Source: Octopus sinensis (Eukaryota). From it: a DNA stretch of 64,000 nucleotides. The position numbers were made by a program, and so were the translations under genes. The DNA is taken from positions 31,868,001 to 31,932,000 of the forward strand of contig NC_043014.1 of NCBI RefSeq assembly GCF_006345805.1. Reading direction: 5' to 3'. This document shows, one piece after another, positions 7,035 through 52,427 of this stretch. Each line of letters begins with the position of its first letter. Position 1 is the stretch's first letter. Under the pieces are notes generated by a model. It was not told where the DNA came from and made no database searches. It saw only the letters and a program-made list of their open reading frames with translations.

Positions 7035-7266
7035 ATTTCTTTACTACCTACAAGGGGCTAAACACAGAGGGGACAAACAAGAACAAACAAACGGATTAAG
7101 TCGATTACATCGGCCCCAGTGCGTAACTGGTACTTAATTTATCGACCCCGAAAGGATGAAAGGCAAAGTCGACCTCGGTGGAATTTGAACTCAGAACGTA
7201 ACAGCAGACGAAATACGACTACGCATTTCGCCCGACATGCTAACGTTTCTGCCACCTCGCCGCCTT
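7035..7266 (-). mobile_element. tRNA-derived SINE family S2 (Meta/MESC-core-like)
   Basis: Minus strand GGCGGCGAGGTGGCAGAAACGTTAGC...GAGTTCAAATTCC...GCCTTTCATCCTTTCGGGGTCGATAAATTAAGTACCAG; many related copies (about 7990, 11515, 12700, 23410, 25992, 26250, 27690, 35150, 37135, 60017, 62505). Confidence 0.85.
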
Positions 7267-7477: not shown

Positions 7478-7698
7478 CCCTTTAGTGTTTAAACTGGCCA
7501 AATCTGGCCCAATATATTCTACATATTTTATATTCAAACTGGTCATATCTAGCCTCTCACACCTAACCTACATTGACAATCTAAAAATAAACAATCACAT
7601 CATTGAAACCTCAAAGCTATAAGGTAATGCATGATTAATTCAAAACAATTTAAATAAAAAAGCATTACAATTAACAGAGTAATCTGAACACTAAAGGG
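7478..7698. mobile_element. piggyBac-type MITE with TTAA target-site duplication
   Basis: TTAA|CCCTTTAGTGTT ... AACACTAAAGGG|TTAA; perfect 12-bp TIR. Confidence 0.85.
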
Positions 7699-21292: not shown

Positions 21293-21468
21293 ATACATAC
21301 ATATATGTATGTGTGTGTGTATATATATAAATATATATGTAAAATATTATTAGAGACAAAACCACTATTTTGCAAAACAAACAAGGAAAGACTTAATCAA
21401 TACATAAAATTTTAATAAATAGTCAAAAAAACCGCCACTTCATAATTTGACACTGAATTATTGGAAGT

Positions 21469-21511
21469 CCACCTGAAGATTGTCGATCAAGACAAGAAAC
21501 GATTGTAGTGG
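21469..21511 (+). ncRNA. Type I hammerhead ribozyme motif, family A
   Basis: ccac-CTGAAGA-ttgtc-gatcaa-gacaa-GAAAC-gatt-GTA-gtgg: canonical core, stems I, II and III all pair, GUA cleavage triplet. Confidence 0.8.
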
Positions 21512-21823
21512 CGGTTTTTTTGACTATTTATTAAAATTTTATGTATTGATTAAGTCTTTCCTTGTTTGTTTTGCAAAATAGTGGTTTTGTCTCTAATAAT
21601 ATTTTATAATATTTTACTATAAAATCGATTTAATCCTAAATCTGATTTTTTTCCCTGTAAATTTGGATTTATTCCCTAATATTTATTATAATATATATGT
21701 AAAATATTATTAGAGACAAAACCACTATTTTGCAAAACAAACAAGGAAAGACTTAATCAATACATAAAATTTTAATAAATAGTCAAAAAAACCTTCATAA
21801 TTTGACACTGAATTATTGGAAGT

Positions 21824-21866
21824 CCACCTGAAGATTGTCGATCAAGACAAGAAACGATTGTAGTGG
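21824..21866 (+). ncRNA. Type I hammerhead ribozyme motif, family A (tandem copy)
   Basis: Identical to 21469-21511. Confidence 0.8.
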
Positions 21867-22519
21867 CGGTTTTTTTGACTATTTATTAAAATTTTATGTA
21901 TTGATTAAGTCTTTCCTTGTTTGTTTTGCAAAATAGTGGTTTTGTCTCTAATAATATTTTATAATATTTTACTATAAAATCGATTTAATCCTAAATCTGA
22001 TTTTTTTCCCTGTAAATTTGGATTTATTCCCTAATATTTATTATAAATATATATGTATATATATATATATATATATATGTATATGTATATACACAAACAT
22101 GGACATATATATATATGTCAATGTATCTATCCACACACACACACACACACACACAGTATTGCTTATGTGTTTACCTTATATTTCATCTTTTCTGTCAATA
22201 TTCTCCTCCCCCCTCACTACTCTCAGCCTGCCTGCCTGTTTGTCTGTCTGTCTCTCTTTCACTAAACAAATATGCAAATATACAGATGCATGCTAACATG
22301 CTGGCAACAATATGCCCACATAGACACACAAGTATACACACTTTAAAACACAGATATGTAGATGTATGAATAGATGCAAAAACATAAACACATACACACT
22401 TTTGCACGTAACTACACACACATATGCATGAATGCATTTGCACCCACCCACATGCACATAAAAATATCAATGCTTGCAAAAATGCATTTACAAATATTCA
22501 ATTGCATACACAAGTTTAC

Positions 22520-23015: not shown

Positions 23016-25765
23016 GTCATCATCACTATTAGCATCATCATTTAACATCTGTGTTTTTATGTTGGCATGGGTTAGACAACTTGTCAGGGTCCAACAAGCT
23101 GCAGAAGCTGTATTGAATCCTAGTGTCTGAGCTTTGGCATGGTTTCTACAGCTGGATGCCCTTCCTAATGCCAACCAGTTTACAATGTGTCCTGGATGCT
23201 TATTTTCATGATATCAGAGTTTGTGAGGACACCAAGGGACTTGCAAGACAAAATAAAGAAAGGAAAAGTAAAAGGAAAAGGCCCACTTCAACTGAGTGAG
23301 AGAGTATCTAACAGAGGGAAGAGGTGGCTTTATGCCAGGTGTTGCAAGCTAAAATAGTTTAGGGCAAGCACAGGTGTCTTACCAACAAATACACAAATGC
23401 ATAAATATAGATTTCAAATTTTGGCACAAGGCCAGCAGTTTCGGGGGAGGGTGTAAGTCAAATCACATTGGCCCCAGTGTTCAACTGGTACTTATTTTAT
23501 TAATCCTGAAAGGATGAAACGCAAAGTCGACCTGAGTGGAATTTGAACTCAGAACATAAAGACAGATGAAATGCTACTAAGCATTTTGCCTAGCATGCTA
23601 ATGGTTCTGCCAGTTCACTGCCTTACAAATACATAAATATTCATTTCAAATTTTGGCACAAGGCCAGCAGTTTTGGTACTTATTTGGTGCTTAACTGGTA
23701 CTTATTTCATCAACTCCAAAAGGATAAAAAGTAAAGTCAACTTTGGTGGAAGTTGAACTTTACTTTTCATCCTTCCAGGGTTGATACAAAATGAGTACCA
23801 GTTGAGTACTAGGGTTAATGTAATCGACATTGTTAATACAGCTTCTAACACCACAAATACCACCACAACAGGCACCACCACTGGCAACAATACAAATGAC
23901 ATAAATACCACTGTTACCACTACTACAAACACTGAAGTGAACACTATTAGTGCTACCACCACCAATATTACTACAAACACTGCAATCAACATCATTACCG
24001 ATACCTCTAACAACATCTCTATTATCCTACCAATGCCAACACCACCACTGCCATCTACACCAACACTACCACCACCACCACCACCACCACCACCACCATC
24101 ATCTATACCATCACTACCATCAACACCACCAACAATACCACCACCAACACCATTACTATCATTACCATTACCATCACTACCACCAATACCACATACCACG
24201 ACACACCACCACCACAACCACCACCACCACCACCACCACAACAACAACAACAACAACAATTATCACCAACATCACCACCATCACATCAACATCACCACCA
24301 TCACCACCATCACTAACACATACACCACCACATCCACCACCACCACCATCACCACCACCACCACCACCACTACCAGCACCACCACATACATCACAAGCAC
24401 CAGCACCAGCACCAACACTACCACCACTACCACCACTACCACCACCGCCAATACCACAAAACTAAGCATTCCCATTTCATTTGAAATATTCTTATGTGTG
24501 AAATATTAAATTCTAAGGGAGACATGTCCCCTATAATTTAGAGTGAAATGGGGACTGCAAATAAATTAATTTCTAAGGAGGATAAATGCACTATGCTGCA
24601 GATAATGATGCATACCATTGTATTGCATTGCATGTGGTGTTTACTCTGCTTGCATAAAATTAGTGTGCGTTTATGTGTATATATGTGTGTGTAAACTTGT
24701 GTTCCTACATATGTATTTGTGTATGTATTAATTTGTATATGTGTATGTATTTGTCTGTGTGTGAGTGTGTGTGTATGTGTGCATGTGTGTGTGTGTGTTT
24801 GTGTGTGTTTGTGTGTGCACGTGGATTTGTGAGCATACATATTATTGTTTGCGTATGCATTAATTTGTATATATGAGTATTTGCACGTGTGTGTATGCGT
24901 ATGTATTTATGTAAGTATTAATTTGTATATGTAAGTGTGTGGGTGTGTGTGTGCATGTGTGTGCATATAAATGTATTTGTGTATGCATTAATTTGTGTAT
25001 GTGAGTGTATTTGCATGTGTATGTGTGTGTCTAATTTGTATAAGTTGTATATCTGTGTGTGCTCGTGTGTGTATCCCTGAGTGTATGTGTGTGCATGCTT
25101 GTGCATGAGTATCTGTATGTGTGTGTATGTGTGTTACCACCACCACCACCACTACCACCATCATCATCATCATCATCCTTTTCATTCAACATCCATGTTT
25201 CCATGCTTGCATGGGACATGGAATTTGCTGACACAGATTTCCTATGGACAGAGCCCTTCCTGTCACTAACCCTTGCCTGTTTCCAGGTAAGACTATGTTT
25301 CTCCATGGTCAGACATGTTTTTTTAACCGAGGACTGGAAATACACAATCTTGTTTGAATGTTGATGCTCATGTGTAATGTGTATGTGTGTGTTTGTAGAT
25401 GTGCATATCATCATCATCATCATCAACATCAACACCGCCACCACCACCAGCATCACCAGCAGCAGCAGCAGCAGCACCACCACCACCACCACCATCATCA
25501 TCATCATCCCCACCACTATCACCATTATCCTCCCCACCACCGCTGCCACCATCATCACACGATTCTAATATCTACTTTCTCGTGCTGCCTAAAGTGGATG
25601 GAGTTTATTGAGGAAGATTTTCTATGACCTTTCCTTTCACCAACACAAGGTAATATTTCACCATGGCCAAAGGCAGCGAGCTGGCAGAATTGTTAGCATG
25701 CCAGGCAAAATGCTTCGCAGCATTTTGTCAAATGACTGAAACAAGTAAAAAGCTAAAAGACTTCT

Positions 25766-32427: not shown

Positions 32428-32541
32428 GCTTAAAACACCTAGGTTTCCCAAGTGGCCACATATCTAAGTACTAACTAGGCTTGACATTGCTTAACTTTGG
32501 TGATGTGGAGAAGAACTGGTGCATTCAACGTTGTTTTTTGG
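32428..32541 (-). pseudogene. 5S rRNA pseudogene
   Basis: Minus strand ACGTTGAATGCACCAGTTCT...ATCACCAAAGTTAAGCAATGTCAAGCCTAGTTAGTACTTAGAT...TGGGAAACCTAGGTGTT aligns by eye with invertebrate 5S rRNA; many substitutions. Confidence 0.8.
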
Positions 32542-32900
32542 AAGACGTATAAGAACATGCATAGGTTTCTAAATACTGGTTATTTATCATACAATTTAAA
32601 TTTAAATCACACACACACACACACGCACACACATACACACACACGTGAGTGTGTATATATTATGGAATGATTATTATTATTTATTATGTATTATTTATGA
32701 TTTATTTAGCATTTTTCAATTAATTTAAAAAAAAAATTAAATTTATATTTATTATAATTTTTCAAAGTTTATTTTTATTATTAATTTTATTTCAATTATT
32801 CCTTTTCTTTGTTTATTTATCCTTTCTTTTATTTATCCTTTATTTTTTTCTTAGCTATGTTTAAATGTGTGTATGTGTGTGTGTGCGTGCATGTGTATAT

Positions 32901-36580: not shown

Positions 36581-36588
36581 TGTTTCTT

Positions 36589-37002
36589 ATTTCTTTATTG
36601 CGCACAAGGGGCTATACTCAGAGAGGACAAACAAAGACAGACAAAAGGATTAAGTCAATTATATCGACCTTAGTGCATAACTGGTACTTATTTAATCGAC
36701 CCCGAAAGGATGAAAGGCAAAGTCGACCTCGGCAGAATTTGAACTCAGAACATAACGGCAGATGAAATACCTATTTCTTTATTGCCCACAAGGGGATAAA
36801 CACAGAGAGGACAAACAAAGACAGACAAACGGATTAAGTCGATTATACCAACCCCAGTGTGTAACTGGTACTTATTTAATCGACCCCAAAAGGATGAAAG
36901 GCAAAGTCGACTTTGGTGGAATTTGAACTCAGAACGTAACGGCAGACGAAATACCGCTTAGCATTTAGCCCCATGCGCTGACAATTCTGCCAGCTCGCCG
37001 CC
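36589..37002 (-). mobile_element. Head-to-tail pair of S2 SINEs
   Basis: 36589-36770 (5'-truncated) repeats 36771-36955. Confidence 0.85.
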
Positions 37003-46107: not shown

Positions 46108-47154
46108 TTAGATGAGGAGGGGGGGAGAGTTGAGACCAAATGGCATATAAGAGCGAAGAGAGAAGATTAATTCCTGTTCACGGCGCAAACGGGAATCTGG
46201 ATGGCCTCTGTGTAAGGACAAACCGAACACAGACAGGTGTTGCAAGGAGTGACCGGTGGAGCGGAAATGGCGTGAGACCGGTGTGTCGTTCGCAAGGTGG
46301 ATGTCACGAAGGTGTTCCGCGAACCGGTCAGCCAAGCGGCGTCCCGTTTGTCCGATGTACAAGGAATGGCAGAGAGAGCAAGAGACGCAATAGATAATAT
46401 TGCTGGAGGTGCAGGTGAAGGAGTTGATGATGCGATAGGGTCGATGATGGGTGCTAGTGAGGAGGGTGGTGTTGGAGAGGTAAGGGCAAGTGCGGCAACG
46501 TGGGCGGGAGCAGGGGAACGAGCCGGGTTGGGAGGTAGGGTCAGGGAAGGAGCTATGGACCAAAAGGTCTCGAAGGTTGTGGGCTCGTTTGAAAGAGGGG
46601 AGTGGTCGGTTAGGGAAGAGGTGTGAAGTGGACGGGTCAGACTGGAGATGACGGAAAGCCCGAAGAATGGTGCATTGGAGAGGTAGGGTCGTGGGGTGGT
46701 AAGTGAGGGGAAAAGGGAGGCGGGAGACTACAGGGCGGGTTCGGGGAGAGAGAGCAGATACACGGTCCACGGACCGTGCTCTGGCAAGGGCGGTGTGGAT
46801 AGTAGTGAGGGGGTATCCACGTAGGGTGAAGTGGTGAGCCATACGTTGAGACTGAGTCTCAAAGTCATGGTCGTCACTACAGAGCCTACATAGATGGAGG
46901 AATTGGGAATAGGGGATGGAAAGCTTGGTGTGTTCTGGGTGGGAGGAAGAGAAGTTGAGGTATGAGTGTGAGTCTGTGTGTTTGTAGTGAATGGAGGTGG
47001 TAAGAGTGGAGTGAAGAATGCTAACCGAAATGTCGAGGAGGGAGACAGAGGTGTTGGAGATAGTGGAAGTGAAGTGGAGGGCTGGATGGAAAGATTGGAT
47101 GAAAGAGAGGAAGGAATCTAGATGTTCACGGGAGAGTAAGGTGGCACCGATAAT
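46108..47154 (-). CDS. Penelope-like RT C-terminal/thumb, Cys-rich linker and GIY-YIG endonuclease (truncated, 349 uninterrupted codons including stop)
   Basis: Frame stays open 104 codons upstream of the listed Met: IIGATLLSREHLDSFL...LLDI...HYKHTDSHSYLNFSSSHP...SIPYSQFL; then CSRPRCRTC and CTSSNIIYCVSCSLCHSLYIGQTGRRLADRFAEH. Confidence 0.9.
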   Translation of the reverse strand: MIGATLLSREHLDSFLSFIQSFHPALHFTSTISNTSVSLLDISVSILHSTLTTSIHYKHTDSHSYLNFSSSHPEHTKLSIPYSQFLHLCRLCSDDHDFETQSQRMAHHFTLRGYPLTTIHTALARARSVDRVSALSPRTRPVVSRLPFPLTYHPTTLPLQCTILRAFRHLQSDPSTSHLFPNRPLPSFKRAHNLRDLLVHSSFPDPTSQPGSFPCSRPRCRTCPYLSNTTLLTSTHHRPYRIINSFTCTSSNIIYCVSCSLCHSLYIGQTGRRLADRFAEHLRDIHLANDTPVSRHFRSTGHSLQHLSVFGLSLHRGHPDSRLRREQELIFSLRSYMPFGLNSPPLLI

Positions 47155-48134
47155 ATATATATATATATATATATATATGGATGGATAGATAGATACCTAA
47201 ATACATATACAGAATATTATATATTCAAATATGGACAAACACACGCACATGCACACACACACACACACATATACATACACATTTATATATATGTATGATT
47301 ATATATGTACATAAATACACACCACACACAAACACATACATATACAAACGCACACACACATATGTAAATATGTATATATATATAAGTATATATAAATATA
47401 TATATATATAATATATATATATATTTACATATATATATATGTAAGTAGTTGTGGCCAATGCCGGTGTCAAGTCAATGGTACCTGTGATGGTGGCATGTAA
47501 AAAGCATGCGCTACATTCTTGGAGTGGTTGGCAGTAGGAAGGGCATCAAGCTATAGAAACCTTGCCAAATCAGATTGGAACCTGGTGCAGCTCTCTAGCT
47601 TACCAGTTTTCAGTCAAACTGTCCAACCCATGCCAGCATGGAAAGCAGATATTGGACAATGATGATGATGATGATGATAATGATGATGATGACATATGTC
47701 TCTTTTGCTAAACCACTGGGTTACAGGGATATAAACACACCAACGCTGGTTACCAAGAAGTCGTCGGGGACAAACATAAACACAAAGACTCACACACTCT
47801 TTCTCCCTCTCTCTCACACACACACACAAAGACACATATACGACAAGCTTCTTTCAGTTTCTGTCAACTAAATCCATACATAAGGGTTTGGTTGAATCAA
47901 GCTATAGTAGAAGACACTCACCCAATGTTCCACACACAGTGGAATTGAACCAAGAACCATGTGGATGGGAACCAAACTCCTTTCCACACAGCCACACCTG
48001 CACCTATGTATATATTTGATGGGTTTTCTTGTCATAAATGACAGCCAAGGGCTCTGCAATTTCTTGTTGAACAATCTACACAAGTGATTTCTCAATAACA
48101 GTGGCTCACAACCAATTGTTATCTTTGGATCCCT

Positions 48135-51954: not shown

Positions 51955-52140
51955 TATTAGGGAATAAATATTAGGGAATAAATCCAAATTTACAGGGAAA
52001 AAAAATCAGATTTAGGATTAAATCCAATTTTATAGTAAAATATTATAAAATATTATTAGAGACAAAACCACTATTTTGCAAAACAAACAAGGAAAGACTT
52101 AATCAATACATAAAATTTTAATAAATAGTCAAAAAAACCG

Positions 52141-52183
52141 CCACTACAATTGTTTCTTGTCTTGATCGACAATCTTCAGGTGG
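52141..52183 (-). ncRNA. Type I hammerhead motif, family A (minus strand)
   Basis: ccac-CTGAAGA-ttgtc-gatcaa-gacaa-GAA-ACAATTGT-A-gtgg. Confidence 0.8.
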
Positions 52184-52262
52184 ACTTCCAATAAGTCAGT
52201 TTCAAATTATGAAGTGAAATTAAATTCTTAGCCTCATAATTTGAAACTGACTTATTGGAAGT

Positions 52263-52305
52263 CCACCTGAAGATTGTCGATCAAGACAAGAAACAATTGT
52301 AGTGG
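52263..52305 (+). ncRNA. Type I hammerhead motif, family A (plus strand)
   Basis: Same motif; the stem III region ACAATTGT is a perfect palindrome. Confidence 0.8.
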
Positions 52306-52427
52306 CGGTTTTTTTGACTATTTATTAAAATTTTATGTATTGATTAAGTCTTTCCTTGTTTGTTTTGCAAAATAGTGGTTTTGTCTCTAATAATATTTAT
52401 AAATATATATATATATATATATGTATA

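What the first reader, a model, noticed from the sequence alone, without database searches (positions are those of the whole stretch)
21331..22045. Tandem canonical hammerheads 355 nt apart: potential template for a hairpin-rich circular RNA
Seen: two identical canonical HHRs with predicted GUA cleavage after 21507 and 21862. The intervening 355-nt monomer is self-complementary over about 93 bp (21508-21605 with 21701-21793). Established: non-LTR retrozymes are tandem repeats of a few hundred nt with type I HHRs that yield circRNAs. Inference: read-through transcription could release a retrozyme/viroid-like monomer. A local duplication or assembly artefact is the alternative.
Basis: partly seen in the sequence, partly recalled or inferred. 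Interest (0 to 1): 0.75.

Follow-up and report, generated by a model that had tools for sequence, protein, structure and literature searches.

The report
Spliced Penelope stump, duplicated in place
The two self-cutting RNA motifs are the end piece of a common jumping gene, pasted in as a short back-to-back copy and likely duplicated on the spot; over a thousand sister copies lack the gene's intron exactly and many start just after the predicted cut, which hints at which RNAs these genes are copied from.

Summary
The two identical type I hammerheads 355 nt apart and the 94-bp hairpin are real. They are not a retrozyme family. Each unit is the ribozyme end (pLTR) of an 8-kb Hydra-type Penelope-like retrotransposon: an inverted, 5'-truncated arm plus a direct copy, in a TA-rich site. 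Thousands of such copies exist. The tandem junction is unique and repeats target-site DNA, so it is likely a local duplication or an assembly error; reads did not decide. The family is the interesting part. The window copy precisely lacks a 1.9-kb GT-AG intron that long copies keep (1,422 spliced versus 618 unspliced junctions). Spliced copies stop at an initiator-like site. Of 78 arms, 30 begin 6-44 nt after the predicted cut and one inside the ribozyme. This suggests copying from spliced sense RNA and from cleaved RNA. A transcript without the first arm is predicted to fold as a double hammerhead, so release of a 355-nt rod remains possible but untested. The scan noted similar head-to-head Penelope footprints before on other DNA; I found no note on this family.

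The parts
21326..21341 (.). Left copy of the TA-rich target-site duplication (11-16 bp)
   Evidence: 16-nt exact match to 22042-22057; overlaps element ends by a few bases
21340..21439 (-). Inverted arm 1: 5'-truncated pLTR copy from the predicted cut site (0/+1, within a 3-4 nt microhomology) to the +100 end
   Evidence: Exact reverse complement of 21507-21606
21436..21459 (+). First exon of the element, from the initiator-like TCACT site to the splice junction 21459|21460
   Evidence: In long copies this sequence is followed by GTAAGT and lies 1.87 kb upstream of the acceptor
21469..21511 (+). Hammerhead 1 (type I, dimer-type), predicted cut after 21507
   Evidence: cleavage untested
21508..21689 (+). 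Rest of direct pLTR copy 1, including the roughly 80-nt tail (about 21608-21689) between the two fixed 3' ends
   Evidence: 3' ends of sister copies cluster at +100 and +178 to +186
21690..21701 (.). Middle copy of the target-site sequence, one A shorter than the outer copies
   Evidence: junction unique in the genome
21700..21793 (-). Inverted arm 2: arm 1 with 5 nt missing at the hairpin apex
21793..22046 (+). Direct pLTR copy 2, identical to copy 1; splice junction 21814|21815; hammerhead 2 at 21824-21866, predicted cut after 21862
22042..22057 (.). Right copy of the target-site duplication, running into (TA)n
51963..52402 (.). Second, independent insertion of the same family in the window: head-to-head spliced arms (long arm on the minus strand), not tandem

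Best explanation
This is a short insertion of the hammerhead-bearing end of a Hydra-type Penelope-like retrotransposon, an inverted arm joined to an intron-less direct copy in a TA-rich site, which was likely duplicated in place afterwards. Shown: the parent is an 8.0-kb unit with reverse transcriptase and endonuclease frames, a hammerhead 9 nt after a splice acceptor, and two fixed copy ends at +100 and about +180. Inferred mechanism: an internal promoter starts RNA at an initiator-like site; a 23-nt first exon is spliced over a 1.9-kb intron onto the hammerhead exon. The element's protein cuts (TA)n DNA and starts reverse transcription at the two fixed sites, one per DNA end. When it uses the sites near the 5' end of the spliced messenger it runs off after 170-260 nt and gives short intron-less arms; when that RNA has been cut by the ribozyme it runs off at the cut and gives ribozyme-less arms; when it uses the same sites at the far 3' end of a long transcript it copies through the unspliced intron and gives long copies. 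The two cDNAs join head to head by microhomology. Here the direct copy reaches the initiator and the inverted arm stops at the predicted cut. Unequal exchange or slippage between the two target-site copies then likely gave target-element-target-element-target.
For: Parent element and splice sites: (7 of 7 long loci, 5 insertions, have GTAAGT after the first exon and TTAG before the hammerhead exon). Same splice and initiator in a diverged subfamily. Hydra motifs by eye against Craig et al. 2021; best fold matches are telomerase reverse transcriptases. Genome counts: spliced 1,422, unspliced 618. In the window's subfamily 503 spliced junctions, only 3 of which match 14 nt further upstream of the initiator, against 126 unspliced donors with that upstream sequence. 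3' ends: 48 of 84 arms at +92 to +104, 35 at +178 to +186; 17 of 18 head-to-head insertions have one of each. 5' ends of 78 arms: 30 at +6 to +44, 1 at -42 to +5, 3 variant ribozymes that run on, 30 at -70 to -43, 14 unspliced; constant truncation would predict about 22 in the gap; microhomology supply there is only 1.4- to 4-fold lower; genome counts step from about 3,000 within the ribozyme to 4,736 downstream. Duplication: junction unique; 27 of 28 other loci show an inverted partner and none a tandem; other hairpin insertions are duplicated with their own periods, 512 and 952, and one without any ribozyme is triplicated.
Against: No read evidence that the tandem exists in the animal: the contigs laid listed no piece bridging the junction and cannot decide; the two units differ only by one homopolymer base and 5 nt at the hairpin apex, typical error sites. 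No RNA data. Ends downstream of the cut sit at +6 to +44, not at +1, and could reflect a block to reverse transcription at the folded ribozyme, or trimming of palindrome centres. Arms of one insertion are not independent, so the P value is overstated. No copy seen had one unbroken frame from start to stop. Pfam and a PDB sequence profile gave no RT or GIY-YIG hit for the parent protein, and no tree was built. In an anole element no RNA reads ended at the hammerhead cut (PMC11167929).
Confidence: 0.82

Rival explanations
1. The insertion is as described but the second unit is an assembly error; the animal has a single hairpin insertion.
For: Units identical except at a homopolymer and the hairpin apex; perfect palindromes in microsatellites are hard to assemble (Craig et al. 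2021 note this); one other tandem lies beside further non-element tandem copies (L084); no bridging contig was listed.
Against: The tandem has a clean target-element-target-element-target layout, and at least three other loci show the same kind of duplication. Short contigs break in high-copy repeats, so the blank is uninformative.
Confidence: 0.25
2. The dimer is real and acts as a nascent retrozyme: a transcript starting after arm 1 folds into a double hammerhead, releases the 355-nt rod and is circularised.
For: For 21437-22046 and 21437-21900 the constrained double hammerhead equals the minimum free energy (-197.3 and -178.0 kcal/mol). The 94-bp rod brings the two motifs together. Retrozymes are proposed to arise from pLTRs by local amplification (bioRxiv 10.64898/2026.07.22.740005).
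Against: The copy has lost the sequence upstream of the initiator and the intron, where a promoter would likely lie (Penelope's overlaps its intron, PMC2377424). Read-through that includes arm 1 puts the fold 8.5 kcal/mol above the minimum. No daughter copy of the unit exists. Only 1 of 9 predicted dimers cleaved in vitro in the preprint.
Confidence: 0.07
3. The tandem was written in one event from a circular 355-nt RNA, as proposed for non-LTR retrozymes.
For: Two units of retrozyme size, each with an intact type I hammerhead; other families in this genome were read this way in unchecked earlier notes.
Against: The unit carries this site's own target DNA and an inverted arm; the array starts and ends like one ordinary hairpin insertion; the junction is unique; ribozyme-less hairpins are also multiplied.
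Confidence: 0.03
4. Family-level rival: the ribozyme does not cut in vivo, and arms that begin just after it arise because reverse transcription stalls at the folded or protein-bound motif, or because palindrome centres are deleted.
For: Ends lie at +6 to +44 rather than at +1; dimer-type motifs cut poorly in vitro (PMC4209133); 17 of 18 head-to-head insertions have both arms in the same 5' class, which symmetric trimming would also give.
Against: Arms that pass the motif almost never stop inside it (1 of 48); the cluster has the same shape as the one below the initiator; solo arms show it too (12 of 30); the core is conserved with a compensatory change.
Confidence: 0.3

Closest known systems
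Hydra-clade Penelope-like elements (Craig et al. 2021, PMC8557442; passages, section 11, supplement parts seen), including Hydra-1_Obim
   Same: RT followed by endonuclease; DKT, CxCx5C, CxxC and CxH motifs; no CCHH; hammerhead in the pLTR; (TA)n targets; inverted 5'-truncated partner and tail.
   Different: Unit is 8.0 kb, not under 3 kb; long 3' region with about 1-kb internal repeats; 1.9-kb intron; tail about 80 nt, not 30-40; asparagine-rich insert; hammerhead differs from that listed for Hydra-1_Obim; RIKWK in place of RWK.
Drosophila virilis Penelope (PMC2377424 and PMC4209133, passages seen)
   Same: Short first exon, then an intron whose 3' end abuts helix I of the hammerhead.
   Different: There the intron is 75 bp and most elements are said to keep it; here it is 1.9 kb and intron-less junctions outnumber intron-keeping ones 1,422 to 618.
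Anole Poseidon element PAc (Frangieh et al. 2024, PMC11167929; parts 1-2 of 4 read)
   Same: Two internal reverse transcription starts that define the tail; AT-rich targets; copies include sequence upstream of the ribozyme cut.
   Different: That work found uncut RNA to be the main template in vitro and no reads ending at the cut; here about 30 of 78 genomic arms start just after it.
Metazoan non-LTR retrozymes (PMC7229834, passages; bioRxiv 10.64898/2026.07.22.740005, parts 1-3 of 5 read)
   Same: Tandem units of a few hundred nt, low GC, type I hammerhead in each unit; the preprint's working rule (two consecutive units with motifs) would probably flag this locus.
   Different: The family spreads as single head-to-head insertions; the unit here contains target DNA and an inverted arm; the tandem is locus-specific; circular RNA not shown.

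Membership tests
Hydra-clade Penelope-like element | Telomerase-like RT followed by a C-terminal GIY-YIG endonuclease in one frame | tested here: met
   Single frames of 748 and 859 aa span both parts; best fold matches are TERT structures, E 1e-8; endonuclease motif judged by eye against the published alignment; Pfam gave no hit
Hydra-clade Penelope-like element | DKT, CxCx5C linker, CxxC and CxH around the conserved E and N, no CCHH | tested here: met
   SDKT, CTCRDKSNC, CYLCSNE, N...KCRH; criteria
Hydra-clade Penelope-like element | N-terminal RWK motif | tested here: inconclusive
   Reads RIKWK; relatives read RxRWK/R at the matching place
Hydra-clade Penelope-like element | Hammerhead in pLTR, inverted 5'-truncated partner, tail, (TA)n targets | tested here: met
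Hydra-clade Penelope-like element | Placement within the clade in an RT tree | not tested
   Reference sequences were seen only as text in a supplement
Non-LTR retrozyme | Tandem 150-450 nt units, each with a type I hammerhead | tested here: met
   Two units, period 355; real existence of the second unit not verified
Non-LTR retrozyme | The unit itself is the mobile entity, found as tandems at many loci | tested here: not met
   Junction unique; 0 of 28 other loci tandem; other tandems have their own units
Non-LTR retrozyme | Expressed as monomeric linear and circular RNA | not testable with these tools
   No raw RNA reads were offered
Type I hammerhead ribozyme | CUGANGA / GAAA / NUH core with three helices | tested here: met
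   compensatory change in helix II in diverged copies; Rfam models do not score it
Type I hammerhead ribozyme | Self-cleavage at the predicted site | not testable with these tools
   Indirect only: 5' ends of copies

The most novel reading that the evidence does not exclude
This family is a fossil record of the RNA templates a Penelope-like element uses in vivo: spliced messenger copied to its start, ribozyme-cut RNA copied to the cut, and long unspliced transcript copied from its far end. That would explain intron retention by where reverse transcription starts, with no antisense template, and give genomic evidence that a Penelope hammerhead cuts in the germ line. The duplicated hairpin here would in addition be a retrozyme at birth (that last step alone about 0.07).
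Probability: 0.5. Interest if true: 0.75.

Novelty: new variant of a known kind. Interest (0 to 1): 0.52.

Why it matters
Why Penelope-like elements keep introns, and what their hammerheads do, are stated as open in the papers read (PMC8557442, PMC3846280, PMC11167929). An antisense template was proposed to explain intron retention. Over a thousand precisely spliced copies that stop at an initiator point to a sense template, and the step in copy ends at the ribozyme makes in vivo cleavage directly testable. The locus itself also warns that tandem-plus-hammerhead screens can count duplicated Penelope stumps as retrozymes.

Tried and rejected
Rfam: no hammerhead family at either threshold; only hairpin-driven microRNA matches far below their cut-offs. 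Sequencing runs: no RNA holder listed; this says nothing on expression. Contigs of 4 DNA or unknown runs laid on 21610-21860 listed no piece bridging the tandem junction and cannot decide it. No RNA contigs were laid on the parent element, so its expression is open. The protein atlas returned nothing for the parent frames or a homologue. Pfam and a PDB sequence profile did not recognise the parent protein. Random 5' truncation was rejected by the gap inside the ribozyme; microhomology supply alone is too weak to explain it. A microhomology deletion as the source of short copies was rejected because the join falls exactly at GT and AG in two subfamilies. Selected viroid-like fold was rejected because 27 of 28 sister loci have the inverted arm as an insertion footprint. 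Literature: searches showed no listing describing abundant spliced genomic copies or cut-site-truncated copies of a Penelope-like element; Arkhipova et al. 2003 and other subscription papers were not searchable, and bioRxiv supplements were not seen, so absence from print is not established.

Full report
Numbering: positions relative to the predicted cut, with +1 = G21508 and 0 = A21507.

Observation. Two identical type I hammerhead motifs lie at 21469-21511 and 21824-21866, with predicted cuts after 21507 and 21862. The direct repeat is 254 nt at 100%, period 355. The monomer holds an exact 94-bp inverted repeat, 21513-21606 with 21700-21793. A first arm, 21340-21439, is the exact inverse of 21507-21606. 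Helix III is 2 bp with a self-complementary loop; alone it has a pairing probability under 0.03, while two copies pair through it. Rfam does not score the motif. Its parse matches the Hydra-clade motifs tabulated by Craig et al. 2021 and the dimer-type motifs of Cervera and de la Pena 2014.

A young dispersed repeat. The unit had 953 first-look candidates; the 40 scored were 98-100% identical. Of 28 other loci fetched, 27 have an inverted partial partner and none is a tandem; ends run into (TA)n. A second insertion lies in the window at 51963-52402. An exact 28-nt part occurs 4,736 times.

The parent. One copy reached 110 nt further upstream; searching with it led to long elements. L070 holds a hammerhead pLTR, a start codon at +236, RT and endonuclease frames with one frameshift, a long 3' region with about 1-kb internal repeats, and a second pLTR, 8,039 nt between the two acceptors. 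Other copies hold RT and endonuclease in one frame (748 and 859 aa), none unbroken from start to stop among those seen. The protein has the Hydra motifs of Craig et al. (by eye), six homologues at 33-44% identity, and its model (mean pLDDT 66.6) matches telomerase RTs best. Pfam and PDB sequence searches were blank for these domains.

The window copy is spliced. In 7 of 7 long loci (5 insertions) the first 22 nt of the unit are followed by GTAAGT and the rest is preceded by TTAG; the nearest donor and the acceptor are 1,867 nt apart. The window copy joins them exactly. Exact counts are 1,422 spliced and 618 unspliced junctions, controls 0 (patterns of 24 and 26 nt, so only roughly comparable). 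A diverged subfamily shows the same initiator-like start, donor, acceptor and spliced short copies. In the window's subfamily 503 spliced junctions were found, but only 3 with 14 more nt upstream of the initiator, against 126 unspliced donors with that upstream sequence, often two per arm. On contig C1, 28 of 31 head-to-head spliced pairs have a gap of at most 32 nt, as expected if both arms stop at or before -70. The initiator label follows the TCACT motif named in PMC3846280; no RNA start was measured.

Copy ends. I examined 84 of the first 100 listed matches to a probe at +46 to +73. Of the 16 left out, 9 already appeared in the spliced or unspliced lists and 7 exceeded the fetch; this inflates the share of short arms but not the gap. 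3' ends: 48 at +92 to +104, 35 at +178 to +186, 1 at +84; 17 of 18 head-to-head insertions have one of each. After merging one locally multiplied insertion, 78 arms remain: 30 begin at +6 to +44 (18 joined straight to an inverted partner), 1 at -5, 3 are variant ribozymes that run on, 30 begin at -70 to -43, 14 continue into the intron. Constant truncation predicts 21.6 ends between -42 and +5 against 1 (or 4) seen, nominal P 1e-11 (3e-8), overstated because arms are paired. Microhomology supply in that zone is 1.4- to 4-fold lower, too little. Genome-wide, 24-nt probes give 3,064 at -43 to -20 and 2,795 at -16 to +7, against 4,736 downstream. Cleavage is the simplest reading; a block to reverse transcription is not excluded.

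The tandem. The 16 nt at 21326-21341 equal 22042-22057, and the same sequence less one A separates the units. The junction occurs once in the genome. Units differ only by that A and 5 nt at the hairpin apex. Other hairpin insertions are duplicated with their own periods (L104, 512; L105, 952), L104 shares an arm-specific change between units, and L084 is a triple with no ribozyme. So duplication follows insertion and needs no ribozyme. Whether it happened in DNA or in assembly is open: contigs from 4 runs listed no bridging piece.

Could it still make a circle? With arm 1 in the transcript, the double hammerhead is 8.5 kcal/mol above the minimum; without arm 1 it equals the minimum, and two single hammerheads are 5.6 kcal/mol worse. 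The copy lacks the upstream and intron sequences where Penelope's promoter lies, no RNA holder was listed, and 1 of 9 predicted dimers cleaved in the 2026 preprint.

Comparison. It works like a Penelope-like insertion with two internal starts (PMC11167929) and meets the Hydra motifs tested; no tree was made. It meets the formal tandem rule for non-LTR retrozymes but fails the test that the unit is the mobile entity. Intron placement next to helix I repeats Drosophila Penelope. An antisense template was proposed to explain intron retention, with an unspliced sense template left open (PMC3846280 discussion); spliced copies point to sense RNA for the short class. My searches showed no description of such copies, within a limited library. 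Earlier scan notes describe head-to-head footprints in other families of this genome and elsewhere, none by sequence for this unit; my reading was set before seeing them.

Verdict. Observation confirmed; retrozyme reading not supported as origin, possible as a by-product. The locus is ordinary; the family's record of spliced, cut and unspliced templates is worth follow-up. Interest 0.52.

Noticed in passing
window 51963-52402: Second insertion of the same family: head-to-head spliced arms; its helix III variant ACAAUUGU is a perfect palindrome.
   Followed up: yes
window 46108-47196, minus strand: 362-aa frame with an RT thumb-like part, cysteine linker and weak GIY-YIG match (E 0.021): by eye a 5'-truncated Penelope-like element of another clade, probably Neptune-like (recalled).
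   Followed up: partly
window 32428-32544, minus strand: Degenerate 5S rRNA-like sequence at the gathering threshold, 38.5 bits; likely a pseudogene or SINE head.
   Followed up: no
window 36588-36955: Two 184-nt tandem units of a short repeat that recurs many times in the window, such as 7099-7215 and 23473-23572.
   Followed up: no
L070 7400-7620 and matching parts of L158-L162: The parent frame carries an asparagine-rich insert of about 80-100 aa between RT thumb and endonuclease linker that differs between subfamilies, as reported for rotifer Penelope elements.
   Followed up: partly
L070 2600-5480: The initiator, first exon and donor sit in a module of 0.8-1.0 kb repeated two to four times per element, giving alternative donors.
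   Followed up: partly
L160, reverse strand about 7670-7695: Four TTAGGG telomere repeats sit directly at the splice donor of a diverged copy.
   Followed up: no
L073, L101, L136, L159, L160: Diverged subfamilies with changed ribozyme loops, a compensatory pair at the base of helix II and different first exons.
   Followed up: partly
L105, L164-L166: Rare spliced copies run 100-400 nt upstream of the initiator, so the downstream copy of the intron is sometimes spliced or an upstream start is used.
   Followed up: partly
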